From a virus: a stretch of 54,684 nt of DNA. Where the stretch lies: the UHGV virus genome UHGV-0199215. One strand, written 5' to 3'. Below are positions 52 through 38,933 of the stretch, piece after piece. The position numbers were made by a program, and so were the translations under genes. Under the pieces are notes generated by a model that worked only from the letters and a program-made list of their open reading frames with translations, was not told where the DNA came from and searched no databases. The first letter of the stretch is position 1, and each line of letters starts with the position of its first letter.

Positions 52-435
52 ATGGGAATGTATACCGAATTAGTGTTGAAGTGTCAGATTAAAGAAAATG
101 TACCTGTGGATGTGAAAGCTGTTATTGCACATATGTTCTGTGGTGAAAAAGAACCAGAGAAACTACCACAACATAAGTTTTTCAGTCTCCCCAGATGGAA
201 TTTTATTGGTAGTTGTAGCAGTTTTTATCATCACCCGGAAGTAATAAATAGTTGCCCTAAATTTGATTTCACCGATACTCAATATATTTTTAGTCGTAGC
301 GATATTAAAAATTATGATGGTGAGATTGAACAATTTATCGACTGGTTGAAACCGTATGTTGATGCTGAAGATGGTGCGTGTATTGGTTGGACGTGGTACG
401 AAGAAGAATTACAACCAAAATTAATCATTAAATAA
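52..435 (+). CDS. hypothetical protein
   Basis: ORF 28..435; ATG at 52 follows GAGGGTG Shine-Dalgarno; no recognisable motif. Confidence 0.45.
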   Translation: MGMYTELVLKCQIKENVPVDVKAVIAHMFCGEKEPEKLPQHKFFSLPRWNFIGSCSSFYHHPEVINSCPKFDFTDTQYIFSRSDIKNYDGEIEQFIDWLKPYVDAEDGACIGWTWYEEELQPKLIIK

Positions 436-450
436 CTCCGAGACGCTAAA

Positions 451-830
451 ATGAAGAAACTGATTCTATGCGCAATGTTAACAACCCTGACAGCCTGTGA
501 TAACGCTGCTGATGTTGCCAGTCGTAACGTTGCAACCGCTGCAGCTAACTTTGAAGTAAATCGTCGTATCGTTTTCTATAACGTTCGTAATGGTGAGTAT
601 CGTTTTCTATCGAAGGTCGTTGTGCCCGTGAGAACACTAGCAAAGAGATCGAAATCACCTGTAAAACTGGTCCGAACGACGTTAAGAAACACTTTATGGG
701 GTTAACCACGGAGGTAACTTATTTCATTGAACAAACAGACTCCTCGCCAACAGATCAGTATCGTTATCGTGTTACGTTTAACCCGATGCAAATTCTCCCG
801 GATCTAAACATCCGTCACCTTGGAGAATAA
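451..830 (+). CDS. putative lipoprotein with a reading-frame break near 594-600 (continues in -1 frame to TAA at 828-830)
   Basis: N-terminus MKKLILCAMLTTLTAC is a signal peptide plus lipobox; frame-1 ORF ends at 705 but an open -1 frame runs 597..830. Confidence 0.4.
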
Positions 831-833
831 CCT

Positions 834-995
834 ATGGGTAAAAAGAAAAGGAAACCGCCAGTTAAGAAAGAACCATATAAGCCACGACATGTTAATGAAT
901 TATGGGCTAAAGATGTGGACGATTTTACTGAATCTGACTGGAGTAAAGTCACAAGGTTGATCGTTAAATTAAAACGTCTATCGAGGTATGCATAA
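834..995 (+). CDS. small basic protein (53 aa)
   Basis: ATG at 834 with GGAGAA 8 nt upstream; below the ORF-track size cutoff. Confidence 0.3.
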   Translation: MGKKKRKPPVKKEPYKPRHVNELWAKDVDDFTESDWSKVTRLIVKLKRLSRYA

Positions 996-1506: not shown

Positions 1507-1539
1507 CTGGGTTCGATGGTTGTACTGAGTGGTTAAAAT

Positions 1540-1573
1540 GGAATCCAAATATAACCACTCTAATACGTATAAT
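1540..1573. terminator. hairpin between convergent genes
   Basis: 9-bp inverted repeat gagtggtta / taaccactc; no strong U-run. Confidence 0.3.
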
Positions 1574-2532
1574 CACGGGATAACATTTATATCTTGAGGG
1601 AGAGAATAAGCAACCCGGCAACGACAATTAATCACGTTCGCGGCACTACCGTTAGGATCACGAGGAAACATAAGTGGTCCTAACGGCGTTGAAAACGGTC
1701 TGTCCATTGGTATCCAGCCATTCGTTTCACCTGTGGAAATATGCGCGTCACGTGTCCGACCATCCTTCCTGTACAACCAACGTTTTAATAATTCATTACT
1801 GATCGACCCCGTAACCTGACCCTGACGAATAGCCTGGTCCTGACCAACGGATACAGCACGAAGTGATTCAGTACGCGCTATTGTCTCTGTACGCTGTTTT
1901 ACGTAACGCAAGCGTGTCTGTTCGATTATCTGGTCAATCTTCGCCTGTGATAGTTTCCCGGCACTTACAGCGTTCTTCGCACTGTCTGTAACAGTGGTCA
2001 GACTGTTCACATAACCTGCTTCACCTTTTTCCAGTGCTGACCGCAGACGTTGAACCGTCATTTCCTGCCGTGTGGTTAACCCTATTGATGATCGAAAATC
2101 ACGGGCTATCTGACGCGGATTTCGTCCGGTTACCACACCCTGATTAACTGCAATCTGAACAGCTTTGACTGTTTCGTCACTGACTTCACGGATCAGTTGT
2201 CCGACATAGTTGTTGATGTATGTACTGACCTGTGGGGTGACCAGACTGAACACAACCGGACCTGTCACAGCCGCTTTCGGTAAAACCTGAACGACTACAC
2301 GACCTGATTCGGCGATAGCATCTTCAATAACCGGGCGCAACTGTGCACTAAGTTCATCAGGGAGTGTTTCAAGAATGGGAAGTAATCCGGCAACACCCTG
2401 AGTTTCAATGATGTATTCCAGGTTAGCTAACGACTCACTACGACGCACGTTTTCCCACACGACATCAAGTGCTTCGCGAATGCGAGCGTCATACTTGTCT
2501 GAAATATCCGGGTATGGGTCTTTAGTAGCCAT
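1573..2532 (-). CDS. head morphogenesis protein (Mu F / SPP1 gp7 family)
   Basis: 319 aa; RTESLRA and NCRCR motifs typical of this family; sits after portal in minus-strand order. Confidence 0.8.
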   Translation of the reverse strand: MATKDPYPDISDKYDARIREALDVVWENVRRSESLANLEYIIETQGVAGLLPILETLPDELSAQLRPVIEDAIAESGRVVVQVLPKAAVTGPVVFSLVTPQVSTYINNYVGQLIREVSDETVKAVQIAVNQGVVTGRNPRQIARDFRSSIGLTTRQEMTVQRLRSALEKGEAGYVNSLTTVTDSAKNAVSAGKLSQAKIDQIIEQTRLRYVKQRTETIARTESLRAVSVGQDQAIRQGQVTGSISNELLKRWLYRKDGRTRDAHISTGETNGWIPMDRPFSTPLGPLMFPRDPNGSAANVINCRCRVAYSLPQDINVIP

Positions 2533-7927: not shown

Positions 7928-8239
7928 ATGAAACCGAATGAAAATATTACACAACTGGATATTGCTTTTGGACCTAAAAACATTGCTGAATTTCTCCCGG
8001 CGATGGGTAGTATTCCGAAAGAATTTTTCGAAAATTCTAACCCGTGGAATCAGTGGGTCAGCAAATGGTTTTTCAATGGTCTGAAAGAATACGCAGTTGC
8101 TGTTAACGGTGTGAACTTTAAACAGGCCCACGCGCATATCAAAGTGATCCTGGGTAGTTTCGAACCTAAACACGAACATAAAATTGCCGGGTGTGCGTAT
8201 CTCGCGTCAATGTGGTTTGTACCGGAGACACTAAAATGA
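7928..8239 (+). CDS. hypothetical protein
   Basis: ATG at 7928 after AGGGTGA. Confidence 0.5.
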   Translation: MKPNENITQLDIAFGPKNIAEFLPAMGSIPKEFFENSNPWNQWVSKWFFNGLKEYAVAVNGVNFKQAHAHIKVILGSFEPKHEHKIAGCAYLASMWFVPETLK

Positions 8240-11487: not shown

Positions 11488-11664
11488 ATGAAAGTTAAAA
11501 TTACAAAATCAAACTGTACTTTCGTTAAAATTGGTGAAGTTACAGAAGTTTTAGATAGTATCAGTGGTCATAAACTATTGTGGTCTAATTCACTCCTGAA
11601 ATACGAAAAATTATCATGGGTTGTAAATTTCTGGGGTGTGAAATACGAAGAAGTAAAAGATTAA
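11488..11664 (+). CDS. small protein (58 aa)
   Basis: ATG with AGAGGG/AAGAAG upstream; below track cutoff. Confidence 0.35.
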   Translation: MKVKITKSNCTFVKIGEVTEVLDSISGHKLLWSNSLLKYEKLSWVVNFWGVKYEEVKD

Positions 11665-11728
11665 CATGATTATATAAAACCGAATATTATTGAAACATAC
11701 ATTCAAGAAAACAAGAGGATTATACAGA

Positions 11729-11947
11729 ATGAAAATCACTAAACAAGAACTGAAAAATTTTGGCGCATGTCAGGAAGGTTTTAAACGTTTCATCATTCAG
11801 ACTAACAACACTGATGAACCGGTTGAAGTTATTAGTCTAATCGGTGGTAAAAACTTTCGTGATTGTCTGAAACAGGCTAAAAAAGCTGGTTGGGTTTTCA
11901 AAGAAAACAATACAGTTTGTTTTGCACCAGGTCATGGAGTCAAATAA
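11729..11947 (+). CDS. hypothetical protein
   Basis: ATG 11729 after AAGAGGA. Confidence 0.45.
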   Translation: MKITKQELKNFGACQEGFKRFIIQTNNTDEPVEVISLIGGKNFRDCLKQAKKAGWVFKENNTVCFAPGHGVK

Positions 11948-27048: not shown

Positions 27049-28716
27049 TCAGATTAATGAACTTGCAACCCTTGCGGCGAGTTCATTAGCTTCACGAGTA
27101 CGTAACCCCTGAGCGCTAAGTACATCAACACCAAACACCCTGTAAAACATCTTGTAAGCGTCATCAACGGGTATACCTTTATCACGCTGAATACCCGCCC
27201 ATGTGGTGATCATACTGCGTAATTTACGCTGTGCATCGTTCATTGCCTGAATGTTTTTCATTGCACTGTAAGCTGCAATAGGGGGTGCACCAGCGTTTAA
27301 CATTTGTTCTTTTACTGCAACAGGGTCACGGTCGATTATCACCACTGCCCGGCGTAATTCTTCCAATTCTTCAGGTGTCAGTTCACGTAAATTACCTTCT
27401 ACACGATCCGGGCCTGAGCGTTCGGCTTTTTCAGGAATATGACCACAATACGGGCAGCACGGAAGACCAGACGGATAAGGCTTCAGACACGGTGGAATAC
27501 CATTATCAGGATCACCCTTGTTTGTACATGTTGTATTACTGTTCCCACTGCTGTTAGATGAACGACGATCACGGTCATCTAAAGACCAGTTGTAGTGCTG
27601 ATCGGGAAGTGGAAAACCACGGGCCAGAAATCGACGAACATTACCGACTTTATCAATAATCAGTGCTTTTTTACCGGGTTTGAAACGCAATGGTCGACCC
27701 ATCTGTTGTACAAACAAAGAGTAAGATTCTGTTGGACGGTCCATTACAGCGCATTCCATCGCCGGGCAATCGTACCCTTCACCGAATAAATCGTTGTTAC
27801 ATAGCACGAGTGTTTTACGTCGTTCAAAACGTTCCAGAATATCCGCTCGTTCCTGATTGCTGTTTCGTGAGCTGATCGCCTCTGCAGGAATGCCAGCATC
27901 GCGAAATTCTTTTGCGAGTGCTTCAGCAGAATCTACGTCACACGTAAACACAACAGTGAGTAAACCGTCTGCGTACGTTTTCCACGTACTGACGGTATCA
28001 CCAACGATGTTTGAATCTTCCATCGCTTTTTTTAACGCAGAGGGTTTGTAATCACCCGTAGTATGGGAAATCATTTCTGCAGTTAATTCCAGGTCTGTTT
28101 CAGCCATGATCAGGCGATAATCAGCCAGGTGTTGTTGGCTGATTAACTCACGCATTGATGGACCGATGATCATCTGATCTGCGTAACCTGACGCATGACG
28201 ACCCAAGCCTTTACCGTCAGCACGGATCGGTGTAGCTGTAACACCCAGACCTTTAGCGTTAGGGAATTTTTCCCGGCAGTCTCCCCACTGTGTGCCACGT
28301 ACCAGGTGATGCGCTTCATCGCTGAATACAAGAGACACGTCGTTGTACCATCGTTCGTACTGTTTTGTTCTTAACGTTTGTGAACTGGTAATAACGATGT
28401 CAGCGCCGGGGGAATAGGTACTGTAACCAAGCGTTTTCATCTGCTGATTAGTTGCAAACTTAACAGTATCTTTTTGCGCTATAAATCTGTGTGGTAATCC
28501 CTGGCGAGCAACAGCCATTGCGATTTGACTAACCAGTTCTTTACGGTGTGCCTGGATGACTTTTACACCGTCGGATTTTACCAGTTCTGCAAGCGCTCGG
28601 GTCTTTCCTGCACCCGTGGGAAGTACAAGAATCACGTCATCAGCACCGTTCGACCATGCCTGGCGCACGTTGTTAACGGCATCTTGTTGATAGTGACGAA
28701 GTGGTTGTTGACTCAC
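27049..28716 (-). CDS. SF2 DNA helicase (DEAH box) with C-terminal Cys cluster
   Basis: Walker A VLPTGAGKT, FSDEAHH box, CPYCG ribbon. Confidence 0.85.
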   Translation of the reverse strand: MSQQPLRHYQQDAVNNVRQAWSNGADDVILVLPTGAGKTRALAELVKSDGVKVIQAHRKELVSQIAMAVARQGLPHRFIAQKDTVKFATNQQMKTLGYSTYSPGADIVITSSQTLRTKQYERWYNDVSLVFSDEAHHLVRGTQWGDCREKFPNAKGLGVTATPIRADGKGLGRHASGYADQMIIGPSMRELISQQHLADYRLIMAETDLELTAEMISHTTGDYKPSALKKAMEDSNIVGDTVSTWKTYADGLLTVVFTCDVDSAEALAKEFRDAGIPAEAISSRNSNQERADILERFERRKTLVLCNNDLFGEGYDCPAMECAVMDRPTESYSLFVQQMGRPLRFKPGKKALIIDKVGNVRRFLARGFPLPDQHYNWSLDDRDRRSSNSSGNSNTTCTNKGDPDNGIPPCLKPYPSGLPCCPYCGHIPEKAERSGPDRVEGNLRELTPEELEELRRAVVIIDRDPVAVKEQMLNAGAPPIAAYSAMKNIQAMNDAQRKLRSMITTWAGIQRDKGIPVDDAYKMFYRVFGVDVLSAQGLRTREANELAARVASSLI

Positions 28717-28753
28717 GTATCTTTCCTTCAGTTAATATCGAATCGTGAAAAAA

Positions 28754-28797
28754 GTTTAAAATAGTTCTTGACGTATTGCAACTTATTCCTCTAACAT
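28754..28797 (+). promoter_or_regulatory. conserved phage promoter (first of a tandem pair)
   Basis: TTTAAAATAGTTCTTGACG, 17 nt spacer, CTAACA/TAACAT. Confidence 0.6.
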
Positions 28798-28818
28798 CTG
28801 CATCAACGAAAGGCGAGT

Positions 28819-28860
28819 GTAAAAATAATTCTTGACAGATTACACAACACCTTTTAAAGT
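28819..28860 (+). promoter_or_regulatory. conserved phage promoter (second of a tandem pair)
   Basis: AAAAATAATTCTTGACA, 17 nt spacer, TAAAGT. Confidence 0.6.
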
Positions 28861-28892
28861 TAGCGATAACCAAACAACAAGAGGAAAACGTA

Positions 28893-29663
28893 ATGTTCGA
28901 AGTTAAATTACTTGTAACTGCTCCGGGTCTGGAAACTGCGATCAACAATCTGGCAAATGCTATTGCGACTGGTGCTGCACCACTCATGACTGCTCAGGAT
29001 GATGGTATCACTAAAGAAACCGTGACAGTCGTTGCTGAATCACTGCCTGTTGTATCAGCAACAACTGAAGATATTGACGATAACGAAACCAGCACTGAAG
29101 AGTTCGACAAATGGGGTTTGCGCCACGATCCACGTATCCACACTGACAGTAAATCCCTGAACAAAGGTGATGGTCTGTGGCGTCAAAAGAAAAAACTGGA
29201 TGAAGCGTTTGTTGACGGTGTTAAACGTGAACTTATTGCTGAAGCAGTTGAAGCAGGGCGTTATACCGGACCTGCAGAACTTGCACCGGGTTATGTAGCA
29301 CCTGTTGATCCTGCTCCAGCGGTTCCTGCCGCTCCGGTAGCTCCAGTTGTACCAGCAGCACCGGCTGCACCAGTCGCGCCTGTCGAGCAACCTGTAACCA
29401 CGGATCCAGCTAAAGTTTATAATACCCAGGTTCTTCAGTCAGCACTAATGCAGATGTTTGGACAAATTACGGGTGACCGTGCCGCGCCATTAAGTCAGCG
29501 AATCATGGGACTGTATGAAACTCAGAACGTGATGCAGATTGACGACCCAGTAAAACTGAAATCTATCATCGAACTGATTGAACGCATTAACGCGGCCCCG
29601 GCTGATGCTGAAAACATTGTTGGTCAGGCTGAATCTGTTAAACAAATGGGTGGGGCATTCTGA
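28893..29663 (+). CDS. hypothetical protein with Pro/Ala/Val-rich linker
   Basis: 256 aa; AAGAGGA upstream; central PAPAVPAAPVAPVVPAAPAAPVAP. Confidence 0.55.
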   Translation: MFEVKLLVTAPGLETAINNLANAIATGAAPLMTAQDDGITKETVTVVAESLPVVSATTEDIDDNETSTEEFDKWGLRHDPRIHTDSKSLNKGDGLWRQKKKLDEAFVDGVKRELIAEAVEAGRYTGPAELAPGYVAPVDPAPAVPAAPVAPVVPAAPAAPVAPVEQPVTTDPAKVYNTQVLQSALMQMFGQITGDRAAPLSQRIMGLYETQNVMQIDDPVKLKSIIELIERINAAPADAENIVGQAESVKQMGGAF

Positions 29664-35301: not shown

Positions 35302-35518
35302 GTTTAACCCTATGGACCCGGCGAAACGTCCCACAGGGCGCTTTGCACGGTTGCCACAAACACGCGAACAGTTTTTTCCATTGTTGAACATGCGAGGGAT
35401 TAAAACAGATCCACATGGGTTGATAGGAACATCCTTGTTCATGTACCGGACTGAATATCCGGTTCCCGCATCGTGGATTGAAGTATCGGTTGAAGATTTA
35501 CTGAAGACTGTCTACTAA
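35285..35518 (+). CDS. hypothetical protein
   Basis: 77-aa ORF. Confidence 0.45.
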   Translation: MSTIVEFNPMDPAKRPTGRFARLPQTREQFFPLLNMRGIKTDPHGLIGTSLFMYRTEYPVPASWIEVSVEDLLKTVY

Positions 35519-35746
35519 TGCGTTGTGAATAGTTGCACATTTGAAATAAATATCTAACCACTTGTCATTAACATCTGTTGAATCACTTCCTGTCAGACCG
35601 TTCAGCCGTGGAAGGTTTTCGGTCTGACACTTCTGAACTAATGCGGCCTGATAAACGGGCTTCTGCTTCGGTAACTCGTTCGTTGTACAGGCGTTGATAT
35701 TCAGAAGTAAGACACTCATTACGAAAAACAGTATTAGTCTTTTCAT
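35498..35746 (-). CDS. o-spanin (Rz1-like lipoprotein)
   Basis: Signal peptide ending LNINAC; overlaps the 3' end of the Rz-like gene in another frame. Confidence 0.5.
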   Translation of the reverse strand: MKRLILFFVMSVLLLNINACTTNELPKQKPVYQAALVQKCQTENLPRLNGLTGSDSTDVNDKWLDIYFKCATIHNALVDSLQ

Positions 35747-35981
35747 GTCGTATTTCCACGATTTTAGTATTCTGCGACCAGTCAGCTAAACCACGAAGTA
35801 CATCATCCGCCAGTTCCTGTTGTGCCTTTAACCGTTGTTGTTCCCGTTGTGCATCGTCTAAACGTTCCTGACGTTCTTCATTTACCCGTGCTTTATATCC
35901 CGCGTGGTAACACGTATACGCACCAGCGCCTAATACCAGAATAGTTGCAACAACGGTGATTAACACGCTACGGGTTGTCAT
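35583..35981 (-). CDS. i-spanin (Rz-like)
   Basis: N-terminal transmembrane helix followed by charged coiled-coil region. Confidence 0.55.
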   Translation of the reverse strand: MTTRSVLITVVATILVLGAGAYTCYHAGYKARVNEERQERLDDAQREQQRLKAQQELADDVLRGLADWSQNTKIVEIRHEKTNTVFRNECLTSEYQRLYNERVTEAEARLSGRISSEVSDRKPSTAERSDRK

Positions 35982-36198
35982 TTGGCGTACCTCGTTGTTT
36001 ATCTACAGCGATTTTTTTAGCACCAACATACTGACCTATACAGAAACCGAAATAGGTTAACAGCACTGTATCATCAAGTGTGCGATCCACGGCCTGGTAA
36101 ATCAGAATGCCTGTTACCACAAGGAAGCCTAAAGCCGCTTGTGCGCGGCTTAAAGAGATCCCCCCGGTTGTGTTACGTAATATGCTGAACTTGTCCAT
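35968..36198 (-). CDS. holin-like membrane protein
   Basis: Two hydrophobic helices; adjacent to endolysin; start chosen at MDKFSILR. Confidence 0.45.
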   Translation of the reverse strand: MDKFSILRNTTGGISLSRAQAALGFLVVTGILIYQAVDRTLDDTVLLTYFGFCIGQYVGAKKIAVDKQRGTPNDNP

Positions 36199-36208
36199 GA
36201 CAGTTATC

Positions 36209-36598
36209 TCACGCCGGATATTTCGCATGTGGTAACTGGAAGTGTGGACCATCTTTCAGTGTTTTCCAGTCACCACCCCATTCAACAGAGATATTCAGTT
36301 CTTTTGCAGCCTGTTTAAATGCAGTGGCAATTTGTTCGTAATACTTCCACTCCCACGACCCGGCAGATGTAGGATAAGCAAATACATCCACGGCGTGACC
36401 CGAAATATGGCGACTGTTCATCGTCTGACTTTTACCTGCAGCAACCAGTTGTCGTTGTCGTTCAACAGTTCGTAAACCTTCTGTGATACCGAAATCAACG
36501 GGTGATAACTGAAGTGCTCGACGCACGATTTTCACAAGATCCGGGTTAACCCCTTTCAGATTATTTTCACTTCTCTGACTGAATTTAAAGTTACTCAT
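36209..36598 (-). CDS. endolysin, L-alanyl-D-glutamate peptidase (T5 Lys-like)
   Basis: N-terminus MSNFKFSQRSENNLKGVNPDLVKIVRRAL closely resembles T5 endolysin; His/Asp metal-ligand pattern. Confidence 0.8.
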   Translation of the reverse strand: MSNFKFSQRSENNLKGVNPDLVKIVRRALQLSPVDFGITEGLRTVERQRQLVAAGKSQTMNSRHISGHAVDVFAYPTSAGSWEWKYYEQIATAFKQAAKELNISVEWGGDWKTLKDGPHFQLPHAKYPA

Positions 36599-36918
36599 TG
36601 CTTACTCCCGGTTTTACGTTGTTCCGCTTTTAAACCTTCAATAACAACTTTCAGGTCATTTGTTGACTGTGTTAGCTCTTTAACACTAGTGAGGATTTCA
36701 GCGTTCTGTGTTGCCTGATATTCAATTTTGATGTCGTGAACATCCACTCGGGATTCCACTCGCTTTGCCAGATTAAGCGCCTCGTGTGCATAGGTTTTTG
36801 CATCTGCAATATCTTTTTCATTAGAATTGATTTGGTTTTGAGTTACCCCGTAACCTACCAACCCTGTAGCAACAAATGCTATTATAGGCCAATACCTCAA
36901 CACTGGGTTATCAGACAT
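36595..36918 (-). CDS. lysis-associated membrane protein (holin or antiholin candidate)
   Basis: One N-terminal transmembrane helix then coiled coil; heads the lysis cassette. Confidence 0.45.
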   Translation of the reverse strand: MSDNPVLRYWPIIAFVATGLVGYGVTQNQINSNEKDIADAKTYAHEALNLAKRVESRVDVHDIKIEYQATQNAEILTSVKELTQSTNDLKVVIEGLKAEQRKTGSKQ

Positions 36919-36944
36919 TGTTCTACACTCCTGGAGACTTAAAG

Positions 36945-38933
36945 ATGGCTAACTGTAATGATTATATCAGTGCTGATGATTTGAAAACAGGCAAACAAGC
37001 GATTTTACATATCGAACACGTTGCGAAAAGTCGTGATGATAACGGTAACCCCGCACTGGAAGTAACAGATATCATCCGTGGTGAATCAGTTACTAACCCT
37101 ACGCTAGATGGTTTTTTTAGTTCGGTAGGTTTTAAACCTGCAGACGGTTCATTTGAAGACGGTGGTACGATTAATCATCGCTGGGAAACTTTATTATATA
37201 AAGCAGAAGGTAATTACTATCAATGGATGGGTGTACTACCTAAAGTTGTTCCTGCCGGTTCAACACCTGCGACTACGGGTGGTGTTGATGTTACACACTG
37301 GGTAAATCAAAGTGATTTAACATTACGAAACGATCTTAAATCTAATAAAGGCAGTTCAATAGTAACGTCGGCGTCTGGGGTTTCTGCGCAAAGATTGGCA
37401 TCCGGGTATAATTTCATAGGGCTGTCAACATCAGAAAATGTGATTAATAGTAATATTGACGCAATAAAAGACCCGGCAACTGGACTGTTTTGGGTATATG
37501 AAGGTGCTGTTTCGTCACCATTAATTGTCCCTGCAGGTACTGTTCCTCCCGAGCAACCATTGGCAAGGTACACGTCTACTAATTGGCGGTGTGTAGGACT
37601 ACTTGACGGCTATAAGGAGACAAACGCTAAAAATTACGGTGCTAAATGTGATGGGGTAACTGATGATTATTACGCCTATCAGTTGGCGCTGTACCACACT
37701 AAAAGTCACGTAACCCATATTGGCGACGCACGAATTGCCACAGCTACGCTCATTAAACCAGTTGGAGTGAGCATTGTTGGTGCATCTGGGTACGTAGGTG
37801 CGCAGCTTGGTAATAATCTTCCATTTACTACTTTTACGTTCGACGGTCCTTACGGTAAAGACACGTACGCTATCGATAACGGTGAAAGTGCTGGAACTGA
37901 AGATTCGGGACGCATTCAGTATGTATATCTCCGTGCGATCAATGACTCTAAGGATAATCTTAACGCAGTTAAATTGACCAAGGCCGGGCAGTTGATGGAT
38001 TGCGGGATTTTAAATTTCTGGAACGGTGTTAAATACGATGGGGGAAGCGCCTACGTACAAATCCACAGAAATAATATTAACTCCTGCAACTGCTGCATTG
38101 ATGCAGCTGGAAGTGAGTCACATATCACCAATAACCACGGGTATAATGACAGCATACGTACTTCTGCACAGTTCAGACCTGCTATTCTTATCAGAAGTGC
38201 TGGTAACATCGTTACTGAGAATAAATTCTTTGGCGACGGGGCAAATACCCCAAAAGGAGTAGAGATATGGGGTCCGGGTAATGTGGTGGCAAATAACGTT
38301 TTTGACGCTTTTACCGACATTGGGATCCTGATAACCTGCAATGACGCCTCTGTCCTGCCTGATAATAATTTAATATCAGGAAACCTGATTACGGGGATTG
38401 GTGATTCGTCTGATACGGCTAATACATTCCGAGCAGGAGTAGTGGTAAGCAATTCTGGTGCGGGGGCCGGGACTATAACAGGAACTGTTGTATATGGAAA
38501 TAGTATGTATAACAAAAGAACAGACCGACAGATGCAGTATGGAGTAGTGATAAATGCGATATCTGGTTCTTTTCCTGATTCACGGACCATATACAACACT
38601 TTGATTACGGGCAACACTTTCGGATTCGGGATTACCGGGCGGAAGGTGATTGCTCTTGGGGCTAACCATTCAGGAAGCAGAAGTAACAATAACTCCGGCG
38701 TTATTACTGAAGCAATTGGGAGTGGTACGTATTCAAACGGAGCAGTGATACAACATGGAATGTCAAGACCACCAGAATTTATAGAGTTCACACTTATAGA
38801 TTCTGGAAATCCAGTTGCTATTTCATTCTCTGCGGTAACTGATACAACATTTACTATTATGATCAGAGATTCTTCTGGAGGGATAAGCGGAACCCGTGCT
38901 GTTGCATGGAAAGCATCAAGATTAACGCCTTAA
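36945..38933 (+). CDS. tail fibre / tailspike with beta-helix-like domain
   Basis: ATG 36945 after GGAGA; Gly/Asn/Thr-rich repetitive C-terminal half; convergent with tail genes. Confidence 0.65.
   Translation: MANCNDYISADDLKTGKQAILHIEHVAKSRDDNGNPALEVTDIIRGESVTNPTLDGFFSSVGFKPADGSFEDGGTINHRWETLLYKAEGNYYQWMGVLPKVVPAGSTPATTGGVDVTHWVNQSDLTLRNDLKSNKGSSIVTSASGVSAQRLASGYNFIGLSTSENVINSNIDAIKDPATGLFWVYEGAVSSPLIVPAGTVPPEQPLARYTSTNWRCVGLLDGYKETNAKNYGAKCDGVTDDYYAYQLALYHTKSHVTHIGDARIATATLIKPVGVSIVGASGYVGAQLGNNLPFTTFTFDGPYGKDTYAIDNGESAGTEDSGRIQYVYLRAINDSKDNLNAVKLTKAGQLMDCGILNFWNGVKYDGGSAYVQIHRNNINSCNCCIDAAGSESHITNNHGYNDSIRTSAQFRPAILIRSAGNIVTENKFFGDGANTPKGVEIWGPGNVVANNVFDAFTDIGILITCNDASVLPDNNLISGNLITGIGDSSDTANTFRAGVVVSNSGAGAGTITGTVVYGNSMYNKRTDRQMQYGVVINAISGSFPDSRTIYNTLITGNTFGFGITGRKVIALGANHSGSRSNNNSGVITEAIGSGTYSNGAVIQHGMSRPPEFIEFTLIDSGNPVAISFSAVTDTTFTIMIRDSSGGISGTRAVAWKASRLTP

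What the first reader, a model, noticed from the sequence alone, without database searches (positions are those of the whole stretch)
451..830. Lipoprotein gene with an apparent frame break
The ORF starts with a textbook signal peptide and lipobox (LTLTAC) but the frame-1 ORF ends at 705, while an open -1 frame begins near 597 and runs to 830 (…EITCKTGPNDVKKHFMGLTTEVTYFIEQTD…). Joined, they would give a roughly 125-aa lipoprotein. This is either a sequencing indel, a pseudogene or a programmed frameshift. Phage lipoproteins of this size often mediate receptor blocking or superinfection exclusion.
Basis: seen in the sequence. Interest (0 to 1): 0.4.

Follow-up and report, generated by a model that had tools for sequence, protein, structure and literature searches.

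The report
Frameshift-broken accessory phage lipoprotein gene
A small lipoprotein gene of this 9NA-like coliphage really is split by a one-base deletion that close relatives lack, so it is a naturally knocked-out accessory gene, not a programmed frameshift and very unlikely a sequencing error.

Summary
Frame 1 is open 451-705 (84 aa, signal peptide, lipobox LTAC). The -1 frame is open 597-830. Joined, they give a 126-aa protein matching Pfam PF25682 (Phage_VG64) end to end (E 7.8e-45).

Four close relatives (PDP46, AVIO78A, Bas82, 536P12; 96-98% identical) carry one intact 381-nt gene. The window differs by a T>G change at 602 and a missing G after 605. All 120 listed homologues, of 593 found, are single ORFs of similar length.

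The exact 84-aa product occurs on 14 contigs under at least five sample accessions. The loci fetched are 100% identical to the window, so random read error is excluded. It is the only conserved ORF of at least 60 aa broken privately in the window.

The break has only a U_UUU tetramer, no slippery heptamer and no downstream RNA structure. Sister lineages carry two other lesions in this gene. The one studied member, mycobacteriophage D29 gp64 (45% identical), is a dispensable, envelope-acting lipoprotein.

Verdict: a real inactivating mutation in a dispensable accessory gene. This is ordinary. Asp at +2 predicts inner-membrane anchoring, and conservation spans phages of unrelated hosts. Both argue against receptor blocking.

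The parts
451..705 (+). 5' fragment of the broken lipoprotein gene. This is the frame-1 ORF of 84 aa. Residues 1-50 are native (signal peptide 451-495, lipobox CTG ACA GCC TGT 487-498, Cys16 at 496-498, Asp17 at +2). Residues 51-84 are an out-of-frame tail ending at TAA 703-705.
   Evidence: PF25682 positions 9-57, E 6.9e-16; exact product P0121 = DAI71440.1
601..609 (+). The lesion. The window has CGT TTT CTA where relatives have CTT TTG TCT A: T>G at 602 and one G lost between 605 and 606, net -1 nt. It leaves a U_UUU tetramer (603-606) followed by the CUA codon.
594..596 (+). TGA in the -1 frame. It marks the upstream limit of the window in which a -1 shift could join the two fragments (597-705).
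606..830 (+). 3' fragment. The -1 frame encodes residues 53-126 of the ancestral protein (SIEGRCARE...IRHLGE) and ends at TAA 828-830. It holds the two further invariant Cys residues (C58, C71) and the KKHF, EQ and F-x-P motifs of the family.
696..830 (+). A 44-aa ATG ORF inside the 3' fragment. It is called as a separate hypothetical protein (DAI71441.1) in a public record and is most likely not a gene of its own.
52..435 (+). Upstream gene of the same rightward cluster of small genes (127 aa in relatives), given for context.
834..995 (+). Downstream gene (53 aa). It starts 4 nt after the ancestral stop, preceded by GGAG at 821-824, so it has its own ribosome-binding site despite the premature stop at 705.
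35498..36918 (-). Lysis cassette, given for comparison: holin 36595-36918, endolysin 36209-36598, second holin-like gene 35968-36252, i-spanin 35583-35981, and an overlapping o-spanin lipoprotein 35498-35746. It shows that the gene at 451-830 is neither the spanin lipoprotein nor part of the cassette.

Best explanation
The stretch 451-830 is one ancestral 381-nt gene for a 126-aa prolipoprotein of the PF25682 (Phage_VG64, 'beta-sandwich lipoprotein') family. In this phage lineage a small compound mutation (T>G at 602 plus loss of one G after 605) shifted the frame. Translation from ATG 451 now yields a signal peptide, the lipid-modified Cys16, 34 further native residues and a 34-residue nonsense tail. 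The beta-rich body with its two conserved cysteines is not made. The mutation is in the phage DNA, not in the reads, and the phage still spreads, so the gene is dispensable. The intact protein is inferred to be made during infection, exported, lipidated and held on the periplasmic face of the inner membrane (Asp at +2). There it would act on the envelope as an accessory factor, as its mycobacteriophage homologue D29 gp64 does. Shown here: the lesion, its privacy to this lineage, its reproducibility across assemblies, the family membership and the conserved lipobox. Inferred: loss of function, the membrane location and the envelope/lysis-accessory role.
For: Family and single-gene layout:
- The joined sequence matches PF25682 at positions 9-126 of 127 (E 7.8e-45), and each fragment matches its own half. 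It also matches PHROG 478 full length.
- PDP46, AVIO78A, Bas82 and 536P12 each have one 381-nt CDS. The only length difference is at 602-606.
- 593 homologue clusters were found. The 120 listed are 111-145 aa, and all 29 aligned read G-E-Y-x-L-S-I-E-G straight through the break site.

The lesion is real and isolated:
- The exact 84-aa product is on 14 contigs under JGI 3300014770 and 3300029310, ENA ERZ27296280 and ERZ1745275, and Logan SRR1929485. One SPAdes contig reports about 30x coverage. All fetched loci are 100% identical to the window over 1.1-8.7 kb.
- Across 48.7 kb alignable to three relatives, this is the only conserved ORF of at least 60 aa that is split by a simple frameshift private to the window. 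The assembly is therefore not indel-prone.

Selection pattern:
- Among the four intact relatives, 13 of 15 variable codons are synonymous. The window-private substitutions are L51R and P98S, with none synonymous. P124L is absent from those four but shared with the P0125 frameshift alleles.

Dispensability:
- A second frameshift (C4 to C5 run, P0125, 23 contigs from many samples) and a 14-aa in-frame deletion (P0133) exist in sister lineages.
- D29 gp64 is 45% identical (E 2e-34) and matches PF25682 full length. Its deletion changes neither plaque size nor lysis timing, and only 40 of 123 cluster A2 phages carry it (bioRxiv 10.64898/2026.08.27.747656).

Location:
- The lipobox Cys is invariant, including in Bacillus, Mycobacterium and Streptococcus phage members.
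- Position +2 is Asp in the close homologues.
Against: - I could not see reads, so within-population heterogeneity or a systematic artefact shared by all assemblies is not formally excluded.
- All contigs carrying the allele are 100% identical where compared. They may come from one host, one cohort or overlapping read sets. Independence of the samples is not proven, and no metadata were found.
- The lesion leaves a U_UUU tetramer on which a -1 slip would restore every downstream residue, so a trace of full-length protein cannot be excluded.
- The 3' fragment is still free of stops, so the mutation is young, and loss of function is inferred rather than measured.
- The function of the intact protein in Gram-negative hosts is untested.
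Confidence: 0.82

Rival explanations
1. Sequencing or assembly artefact: the phage really has an intact gene, and the missing base is an error in the deposited sequence.
For: A single-base length difference sits next to a T run. All carriers are 100% identical, so they could derive from overlapping data. No reads could be inspected.
Against: - The change is compound (a substitution plus a deletion). The T run has the same length (4) in both alleles, so this is not a homopolymer miscount.
- The same sequence comes from JGI, MEGAHIT-style (k119), SPAdes (about 30x coverage) and Logan assemblies under at least five sample accessions.
- No other conserved ORF of at least 60 aa in the window is frame-broken by a simple indel.
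- The window carries extra private non-synonymous changes downstream of the break.
Confidence: 0.04
2. Recoding: ribosomes slip -1 on cgU_UUU_cua (603-606) and produce a full-length lipoprotein (GEYRF|SIEG...). The gene would then still be expressed, either as a programmed event or as a low-dose leaky allele.
For: A -1 re-pairing of tRNA-Phe from UUU 604-606 to UUU 603-605 is cognate and puts the ribosome exactly on TCT 606-608 (Ser53), restoring all downstream residues. The next frame-0 codon, CUA, is a rare E. coli Leu codon (general knowledge). U_UU.U is among the six tetramers that shift when a pseudoknot follows (PMC4066793). The 3' fragment is still intact.
Against: - There is no X_XXY_YYZ heptamer.
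- Tetramers without a stimulator shift at about 0.15%, against a 0.11% background.
- The 95 nt from the site onward fold no better than shuffles (z +1.2, 181 of 200 shuffles fold at least as well).
- The layout is absent from all relatives and all aligned homologues.
- The restored protein would carry R51 and F52, where Leu52 is nearly invariant.
Confidence: 0.06
3. Two genes or neofunctionalisation: the 84-aa truncated lipoprotein, the 44-aa ORF 696-830, or both, are functional products in their own right.
For: Both are annotated as separate proteins in a public record (DAI71440.1, DAI71441.1). The truncated product keeps an intact signal peptide and lipobox. The allele persists in a phage abundant enough to assemble completely.
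Against: - The tail of the 84-aa product is out-of-frame sequence with no homologue.
- No family member was found as two genes.
- The 44-aa ORF has no evident Shine-Dalgarno sequence and matches only the C-terminal third of the domain.
- The split is confined to one clonal lineage.
Confidence: 0.03

Closest known systems
Mycobacteriophage D29 / L5 gp64 (namesake of Pfam PF25682 Phage_VG64)
   Same: Homologous over the whole mature protein (45% identity, E 2e-34), with the lipobox Cys16 aligned to Cys31. Both match PF25682 full length. The gene is non-essential: the D29 deletion has no plaque or lysis phenotype, and the gene is patchily distributed. That fits the natural knock-outs seen here.
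   Different: The host is an actinobacterium. D29 gene 64 lies among replication genes, whereas here the gene sits in a small reverse-oriented cluster between head genes. The window copy is frameshifted. The D29 phenotypes (toxicity on overexpression; C31Y suppressing a holin-like double deletion) have not been tested for any Gram-negative member.
Intact orthologues in 9NA-like coliphages (PDP46_0038, AVIO78A_043, Bas82_0030, Sashavirus 536P12)
   Same: 96-98% nucleotide identity, the same neighbours and the same start and stop positions.
   Different: They have one 381-nt ORF. The window has a T>G at 602, a 1-nt deletion, and the private change P98S. P124L is absent from these four but shared with the P0125 alleles.
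Outer-membrane receptor-blocking phage lipoproteins (T5 Llp, T1/phi80 Cor)
   Same: Small phage-encoded lipoproteins made during infection.
   Different: - No sequence relationship was detected; PF25682 is the only Pfam hit at E up to 1.
- The +2 Asp predicts inner-membrane retention, whereas Llp and Cor act at outer-membrane receptors (general knowledge).
- The gene is not next to the tailspike/receptor-binding gene (36918-38933).
- The family is conserved across hosts that have no shared receptor.
Programmed -1 frameshift sites (IS3/IS911 transposases, dnaX, phage tail chaperone G/GT)
   Same: Two overlapping frames with the second in -1, and a U_UUU tetramer in the overlap.
   Different: No heptamer, no stimulatory structure and no conservation of the arrangement.
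Recombination directionality factors (the label attached to PHROG 478 and to many database entries of this family)
   Same: Only the database label.
   Different: Every member examined has an N-terminal signal peptide and an invariant lipobox Cys, so the protein is exported. The experimental work on D29 gp64 treats it as a lipoprotein. I found no evidence for RDF activity.

Membership tests
Pfam PF25682 Phage_VG64 / NCBI 'beta-sandwich lipoprotein' / PHROG 478 | Significant, near full-length match to the family profile | tested here: met
   The joined sequence scores 152 bits, E 7.8e-45, at profile positions 9-126 of 127 (cut-off 27 bits). The fragments match 9-57 and 88-126. PHROG 478 matches 1-129 of 129, E 2.2e-45.
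Pfam PF25682 Phage_VG64 / NCBI 'beta-sandwich lipoprotein' / PHROG 478 | N-terminal signal peptide ending in a lipobox with an invariant Cys | tested here: met
   MKKLILCAMLTTLTA|C. Cys16 is invariant in 30 aligned members and in the Bacillus, Mycobacterium and Streptococcus phage members. 134 of 137 retrieved sequences match a lipobox pattern.
Pfam PF25682 Phage_VG64 / NCBI 'beta-sandwich lipoprotein' / PHROG 478 | Conserved body (two further invariant Cys, the KKHF, EQ and F-x-P motifs; beta-rich fold) | tested here: met
   All are encoded in the -1 frame at 606-827. An AlphaFold2 model of the intact relative P0001 has six strands and pLDDT 81-90 over residues 31-100. These residues are not in the frame-1 product.
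Pfam PF25682 Phage_VG64 / NCBI 'beta-sandwich lipoprotein' / PHROG 478 | One uninterrupted ORF of about 120-140 aa | tested here: not met
   The window ORF stops after 84 codons, while relatives have 126. The window therefore holds a disrupted allele of a family member, not an intact member.
Programmed -1 ribosomal frameshift | Slippery heptamer X_XXY_YYZ in the overlap | tested here: not met
   The overlap 597-705 was read directly. Only the tetramer U_UUU (603-606) lies at the homologous junction.
Programmed -1 ribosomal frameshift | Downstream stimulatory RNA structure | tested here: not met
   Window 596-690 folds at -14.2 kcal/mol against a shuffle mean of -17.8 (z +1.2). Pseudoknots are not modelled by this tool.
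Programmed -1 ribosomal frameshift | Two-frame arrangement conserved in homologues | tested here: not met
   Four close relatives and all aligned homologues are single-frame.
Programmed -1 ribosomal frameshift | Frameshifted full-length product detected | not testable with these tools
   This needs mass spectrometry or a reporter assay.
Receptor-blocking outer-membrane lipoproteins (Llp, Cor) | Outer-membrane targeting | tested here: not met
   Position +2 is Asp followed by Asn (C-D-N), and the close homologues have CDN, CDV or CDI. By the +2 rule for Enterobacteriaceae (general knowledge) this predicts inner-membrane retention. It is a prediction, not a measurement.
Receptor-blocking outer-membrane lipoproteins (Llp, Cor) | Sequence or fold relationship to Llp or Cor | tested here: not met
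   PF25682 is the only Pfam hit at E up to 1. There is no PDB sequence hit. No PDB fold match was better than E 0.17 or TM 0.29.
o-spanin | Lipoprotein gene embedded in, overlapping or adjacent to the i-spanin gene in the lysis cassette | tested here: not met
   A separate o-spanin candidate (35498-35746, lipobox INAC) overlaps the i-spanin gene (35583-35981). The gene at 451-830 is 35 kb away.
Recombination directionality factor | Cytoplasmic protein acting on an integrase | tested here: not met
   A signal peptide and lipobox are conserved throughout the family. The presence of an integrase in the window was not tested.

The most novel reading that the evidence does not exclude
The break is not a dead end but a dose-reducing allele. 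A rare -1 slip of tRNA-Phe on cgU_UUU, helped by the rare CUA codon that follows, would make a trace of full-length lipoprotein. The homologue of this protein is toxic when overexpressed. The recurrent frameshift alleles in this gene (this one, and the C4-to-C5 run allele found in 23 contigs) would then be a natural way of turning a costly envelope-acting protein down or off and back on.
Probability: 0.05. Interest if true: 0.5.

Novelty: new member of a known kind. Interest (0 to 1): 0.2.

Why it matters
For the finding itself, not much: it is a natural null allele of an accessory gene and should be annotated as one disrupted gene rather than two hypothetical proteins.

The useful by-products concern the family.
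- The gene belongs to a very widespread phage lipoprotein family: 936 phage records, with 45-50% identity between phages of E. coli, Bacillus and Mycobacterium.
- The family is almost unstudied and is widely mislabelled as a recombination directionality factor.
- Natural knock-outs in coliphages agree with the one experimental report that the gene is dispensable in the laboratory. Strong purifying selection on the intact alleles shows it still matters in nature.
- An isolated coliphage with an intact copy (Bas82 of the BASEL collection) would make the function testable in E. coli.

Tried and rejected
- Programmed frameshift: rejected. There is no heptamer, no downstream structure and no conservation.
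- Homopolymer-length sequencing error: rejected. The T run is 4 in both alleles, the change is compound, and it recurs in many assemblies.
- Error-prone assembly: rejected. The only other two-frame hit in a whole-window comparison with three relatives was 11665-11854 against PDP46_0013. It turned out to be a mosaic junction, not a frameshift. The remaining private 1-nt indels (6399, 9477, 50797, 28589-29001) lie in no conserved ORF of at least 60 aa or are compensated.
- o-spanin: rejected.
- RDF function: rejected as a database label without support.
- Structure-based function: the AlphaFold2 model (pLDDT 71) found no significant PDB neighbour (best E 0.17). In BFVD the three significant matches (E 8e-12 to 8e-9) are phage proteins labelled lipoprotein, adhesin or uncharacterised, which gives no functional clue.
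- Promoter and terminator scans around the cluster gave nothing above shuffles.
- Two scans of the JGI metagenome contig collection for the allele found nothing.
- A literature search for the sample accessions found nothing, so sample independence could not be documented.
- The 9NA genomics paper (PMC6819911) is not held.

Full report
**1. The observation**

The sequence is as described. Frame 1 is open from ATG 451 to TAA 703-705 (84 codons) and begins MKKLILCAMLTTLTAC. It has two lysines, a hydrophobic core and the lipobox L-T-A-C, with the Cys codon at 496-498. The -1 frame is closed by TGA 594-596 and then open from 597 to TAA 828-830. It reads ...SIEGRCARENTSKEIEITCKTGPNDVKKHFMGLTTEVTYFIEQTD....

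This is not a chance pair of ORFs. Against Pfam, the 5' product matches positions 9-57 of the 127-position profile PF25682 (Phage_VG64; E 6.9e-16). The 44-aa 3' ORF matches positions 88-126 (E 5e-10). The joined 126-aa sequence matches 9-126 (E 7.8e-45, 152 bits against a 27-bit cut-off).

**2. What the relatives show**

The window is a 9NA-like siphovirus genome (Nonanavirus/Sashavirus group). Public contigs run across its end into its start, so the genome is complete and circularly permuted.

Four relatives are 96-98% identical here: PDP46, vB_EcoS_AVIO78A, KarinMuster_Bas82 and Sashavirus 536P12. The three annotated ones list a single 381-nt CDS in this position, and the unannotated 536P12 has the same uninterrupted reading frame. 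In the alignment the only length difference is at the break. Relatives read GAG TAT CTT TTG TCT ATC (E Y L L S I), while the window reads GAG TAT CGT TTT CTA TCG. That is a T>G substitution at 602 and loss of one G between 605 and 606.

A search of 5.8 billion proteins returned 593 homologue clusters. The 120 listed are 111-145 aa and all carry PF25682. All 29 aligned homologues read G-E-Y-x-L-S-I-E-G straight through the site. So homologues are one gene, and the break is private to this lineage.

**3. Real mutation or error?**

The exact 84-aa frameshift product is already in the public collection (P0121 = DAI71440.1), and the 44-aa ORF is DAI71441.1. It is encoded on 14 contigs. The places shown come from five sample accessions: JGI 3300014770 and 3300029310, ENA ERZ27296280 and ERZ1745275, and Logan SRR1929485. 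The contig names indicate several assemblers, and one SPAdes contig reports about 30x coverage. All fetched loci are 100% identical to the window over 1.1-8.7 kb.

The T run has the same length in both alleles and the change is compound. That is not how homopolymer or random errors look.

As a control for assembly quality I aligned the whole window to PDP46, 536P12 and BDX09P1 (48.7 kb covered at 90% identity or more). I then searched every ORF of at least 60 aa from those genomes against the window. The lipoprotein gene is the only conserved ORF that a simple frameshift splits privately in the window. One other two-frame hit, at 11665-11854, is a mosaic junction. The remaining private 1-nt indels lie in no conserved ORF of at least 60 aa or are compensated.

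I could not see reads, and I found no metadata for the samples. The carriers may not be independent in origin, but random read error is excluded.

**4. Programmed frameshift?**

The overlap contains no X_XXY_YYZ heptamer. At the junction there is only U_UUU (603-606). A -1 re-pairing of tRNA-Phe there would land exactly on TCT 606-608 and restore every downstream residue, giving GEYRF|SIEG.... This is why I keep a small probability for leakiness.

Three results argue against it. In E. coli, tetramers without a stimulator shift at about 0.15% against a 0.11% background (PMC4066793). The RNA from 596 to 690 folds no better than shuffles (z +1.2). The arrangement is absent from every relative.

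**5. Signs of relaxed constraint and dispensability**

Among the four intact relatives, 13 of 15 variable codons are synonymous, so the intact gene is under purifying selection. The window's private substitutions are L51R at the lesion and P98S, and none is synonymous. P124L is absent from those four relatives but shared with the P0125 alleles. The numbers are small.

The same 90%-identity protein cluster holds two other lesions.
- P0125 (111 aa) has one extra C in a C4 run (GACCCCTC to GACCCCCTC). It is seen on 23 contigs from many samples and in different gene contexts.
- P0133 has a 14-aa in-frame deletion.

The intact allele P0124 is far commoner, being listed in 84 blocks of the collection. 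The closest intact-allele genomes are 96-98% identical to the window flanks.

**6. What the gene is**

PHROG 478 and many GenBank records call the family a 'site-specific recombination directionality factor'. NCBI calls it 'beta-sandwich lipoprotein'.

tblastn finds the family in 936 phage records: Mycobacterium 349, Bacillus 192, Gordonia 79, Streptococcus 51, Staphylococcus 47, and also Proteus, Vibrio and Erwinia. Identity to the coliphage protein is 45-50% even in Bacillus and Mycobacterium phages. The lipobox Cys is invariant in all of them, which does not fit a cytoplasmic RDF.

An AlphaFold2 model of an intact relative has a helix followed by six strands (pLDDT 81-90 over residues 31-100; mean 71). 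It has no significant neighbour in the PDB (best E 0.17). In BFVD its three significant matches (E 8e-12 to 8e-9) are phage proteins labelled lipoprotein, adhesin or uncharacterised, which gives no functional clue.

The one experimental study concerns mycobacteriophage D29 gene 64. I confirmed that its product is a homologue: 45% identity, E 2e-34, Cys16 aligned to Cys31, and PF25682 full length. In that preprint (bioRxiv 10.64898/2026.08.27.747656):
- deleting gene 64 changes neither plaque size nor lysis timing;
- overexpression is toxic;
- a C31Y change in the lipobox Cys suppresses the lysis defect of a double deletion of two holin-like regulators;
- only 40 of 123 cluster A2 phages carry the gene.

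**7. Where it would act here**

In the window and its close homologues the residue after the lipidated Cys is Asp, followed by Asn, Val or Ile. By the +2 rule of Enterobacteriaceae (general knowledge) this keeps a lipoprotein in the inner membrane.

The gene is not part of the lysis cassette (35498-36918). That cassette has its own o-spanin lipoprotein overlapping the i-spanin gene. The gene is also not next to the tailspike gene (36918-38933).

Together with the cross-phylum conservation, this argues against a receptor-specific outer-membrane blocker of the Llp or Cor type. It is compatible with an action at the periplasmic face of the cytoplasmic membrane. That part is inference.

**8. Verdict**

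This is a real, lineage-specific inactivating frameshift in a dispensable accessory lipoprotein gene of a known but poorly understood family. It should be annotated as one disrupted gene. As a finding it is ordinary. The family deserves experimental attention, and the intact copy in the isolated coliphage Bas82 offers a way in.

Noticed in passing
window 54684 -> 1 (junction); L011-L015: Public contigs of 39.6-54.9 kb run across the window's end into its start at 100% identity. The window is therefore a complete, circularly permuted (or terminally redundant) genome of 54,684 bp from a 9NA-like phage.
   Followed up: partly
family-wide (PHROG 478, PF25682); e.g. L003 951-1331, L025 1501-1905, L028 3465-3881: The family is labelled 'site-specific recombination directionality factor RDF' in many phage records, including D29 gene 64 and Bas82_0030. 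Yet every member checked has a signal peptide and an invariant lipobox Cys. It occurs in 936 phage records across Gram-negative, Gram-positive and actinobacterial hosts at 45-50% identity. That distribution is far wider than the actinobacteriophage range stated in the D29 preprint.
   Followed up: partly
L017-L024 (gene at 1501-1836 in L017); protein P0125: A second, independent frameshift in the same gene in sister lineages: one extra C in a C4 run after ...IEQTDP, giving a 111-aa product. It is found on 23 contigs from many samples and in different gene contexts. A third allele (P0133) has a 14-aa in-frame deletion.
   Followed up: partly
window 496-504 (Cys16-Asp17-Asn18): Asp at +2 and Asn at +3 after the lipobox Cys. 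The same CDN, CDV or CDI pattern occurs in the enterobacterial-type homologues (56 of 134 retrieved sequences have Asp at +2). This is the inner-membrane retention signal of Enterobacteriaceae.
   Followed up: partly
L002 552-936 (AVIO78A_045/044), equivalent to window 52-435: In phage AVIO78A the gene just upstream of the lipoprotein gene is annotated as two overlapping CDS (126 and 297 nt). The window, PDP46 and Bas82 have one 384-nt gene there. This is probably a frameshift or sequencing error in that record.
   Followed up: no
window 1507-1613; L001 2030-3427; L018, L019, L033, L037: The stretch between the small-gene cluster and the Mu F-like head morphogenesis gene is unmatched in relatives. 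At the same spot several relatives carry a gene for a 307-aa protein with T5orf172, CapR, DUF723 and MUG113 hits (homing-endonuclease-like). It looks like an insertion hotspot.
   Followed up: no
window 36209-36598 (-): The window's endolysin has no tblastn match to the PDP46 'glycosyl hydrolase' endolysin, although the flanking holin, second holin-like gene and i-spanin are 72-90% identical. This points to a module swap inside the lysis cassette.
   Followed up: no
window 11488-11947: Mosaic junction relative to PDP46_0013 (217 aa with an Ala/Tyr/Asp-rich repetitive C-terminus). The window keeps only the central part as an 85-aa ORF. A remnant of residues 27-45 lies in another frame just after the stop of a different 58-aa upstream ORF.
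   Followed up: partly
window 28589-29001: A cluster of small indels (-1, -1, +2; +1, +4, +1; +1, +1, +5) relative to all three relatives compared. It lies in the divergent region between the 555-aa ORF (27049-28716, -) and the 256-aa ORF (28893-29663, +), probably a fast-evolving regulatory region.
   Followed up: no
L007 region equivalent to window 7938-8236: Sashavirus 536P12 has one extra T in a T run (window position 8024). Its 100-aa ORF therefore aligns to the window in two different reading frames. Which of the two genomes carries the derived, frame-changing state was not resolved.
   Followed up: no
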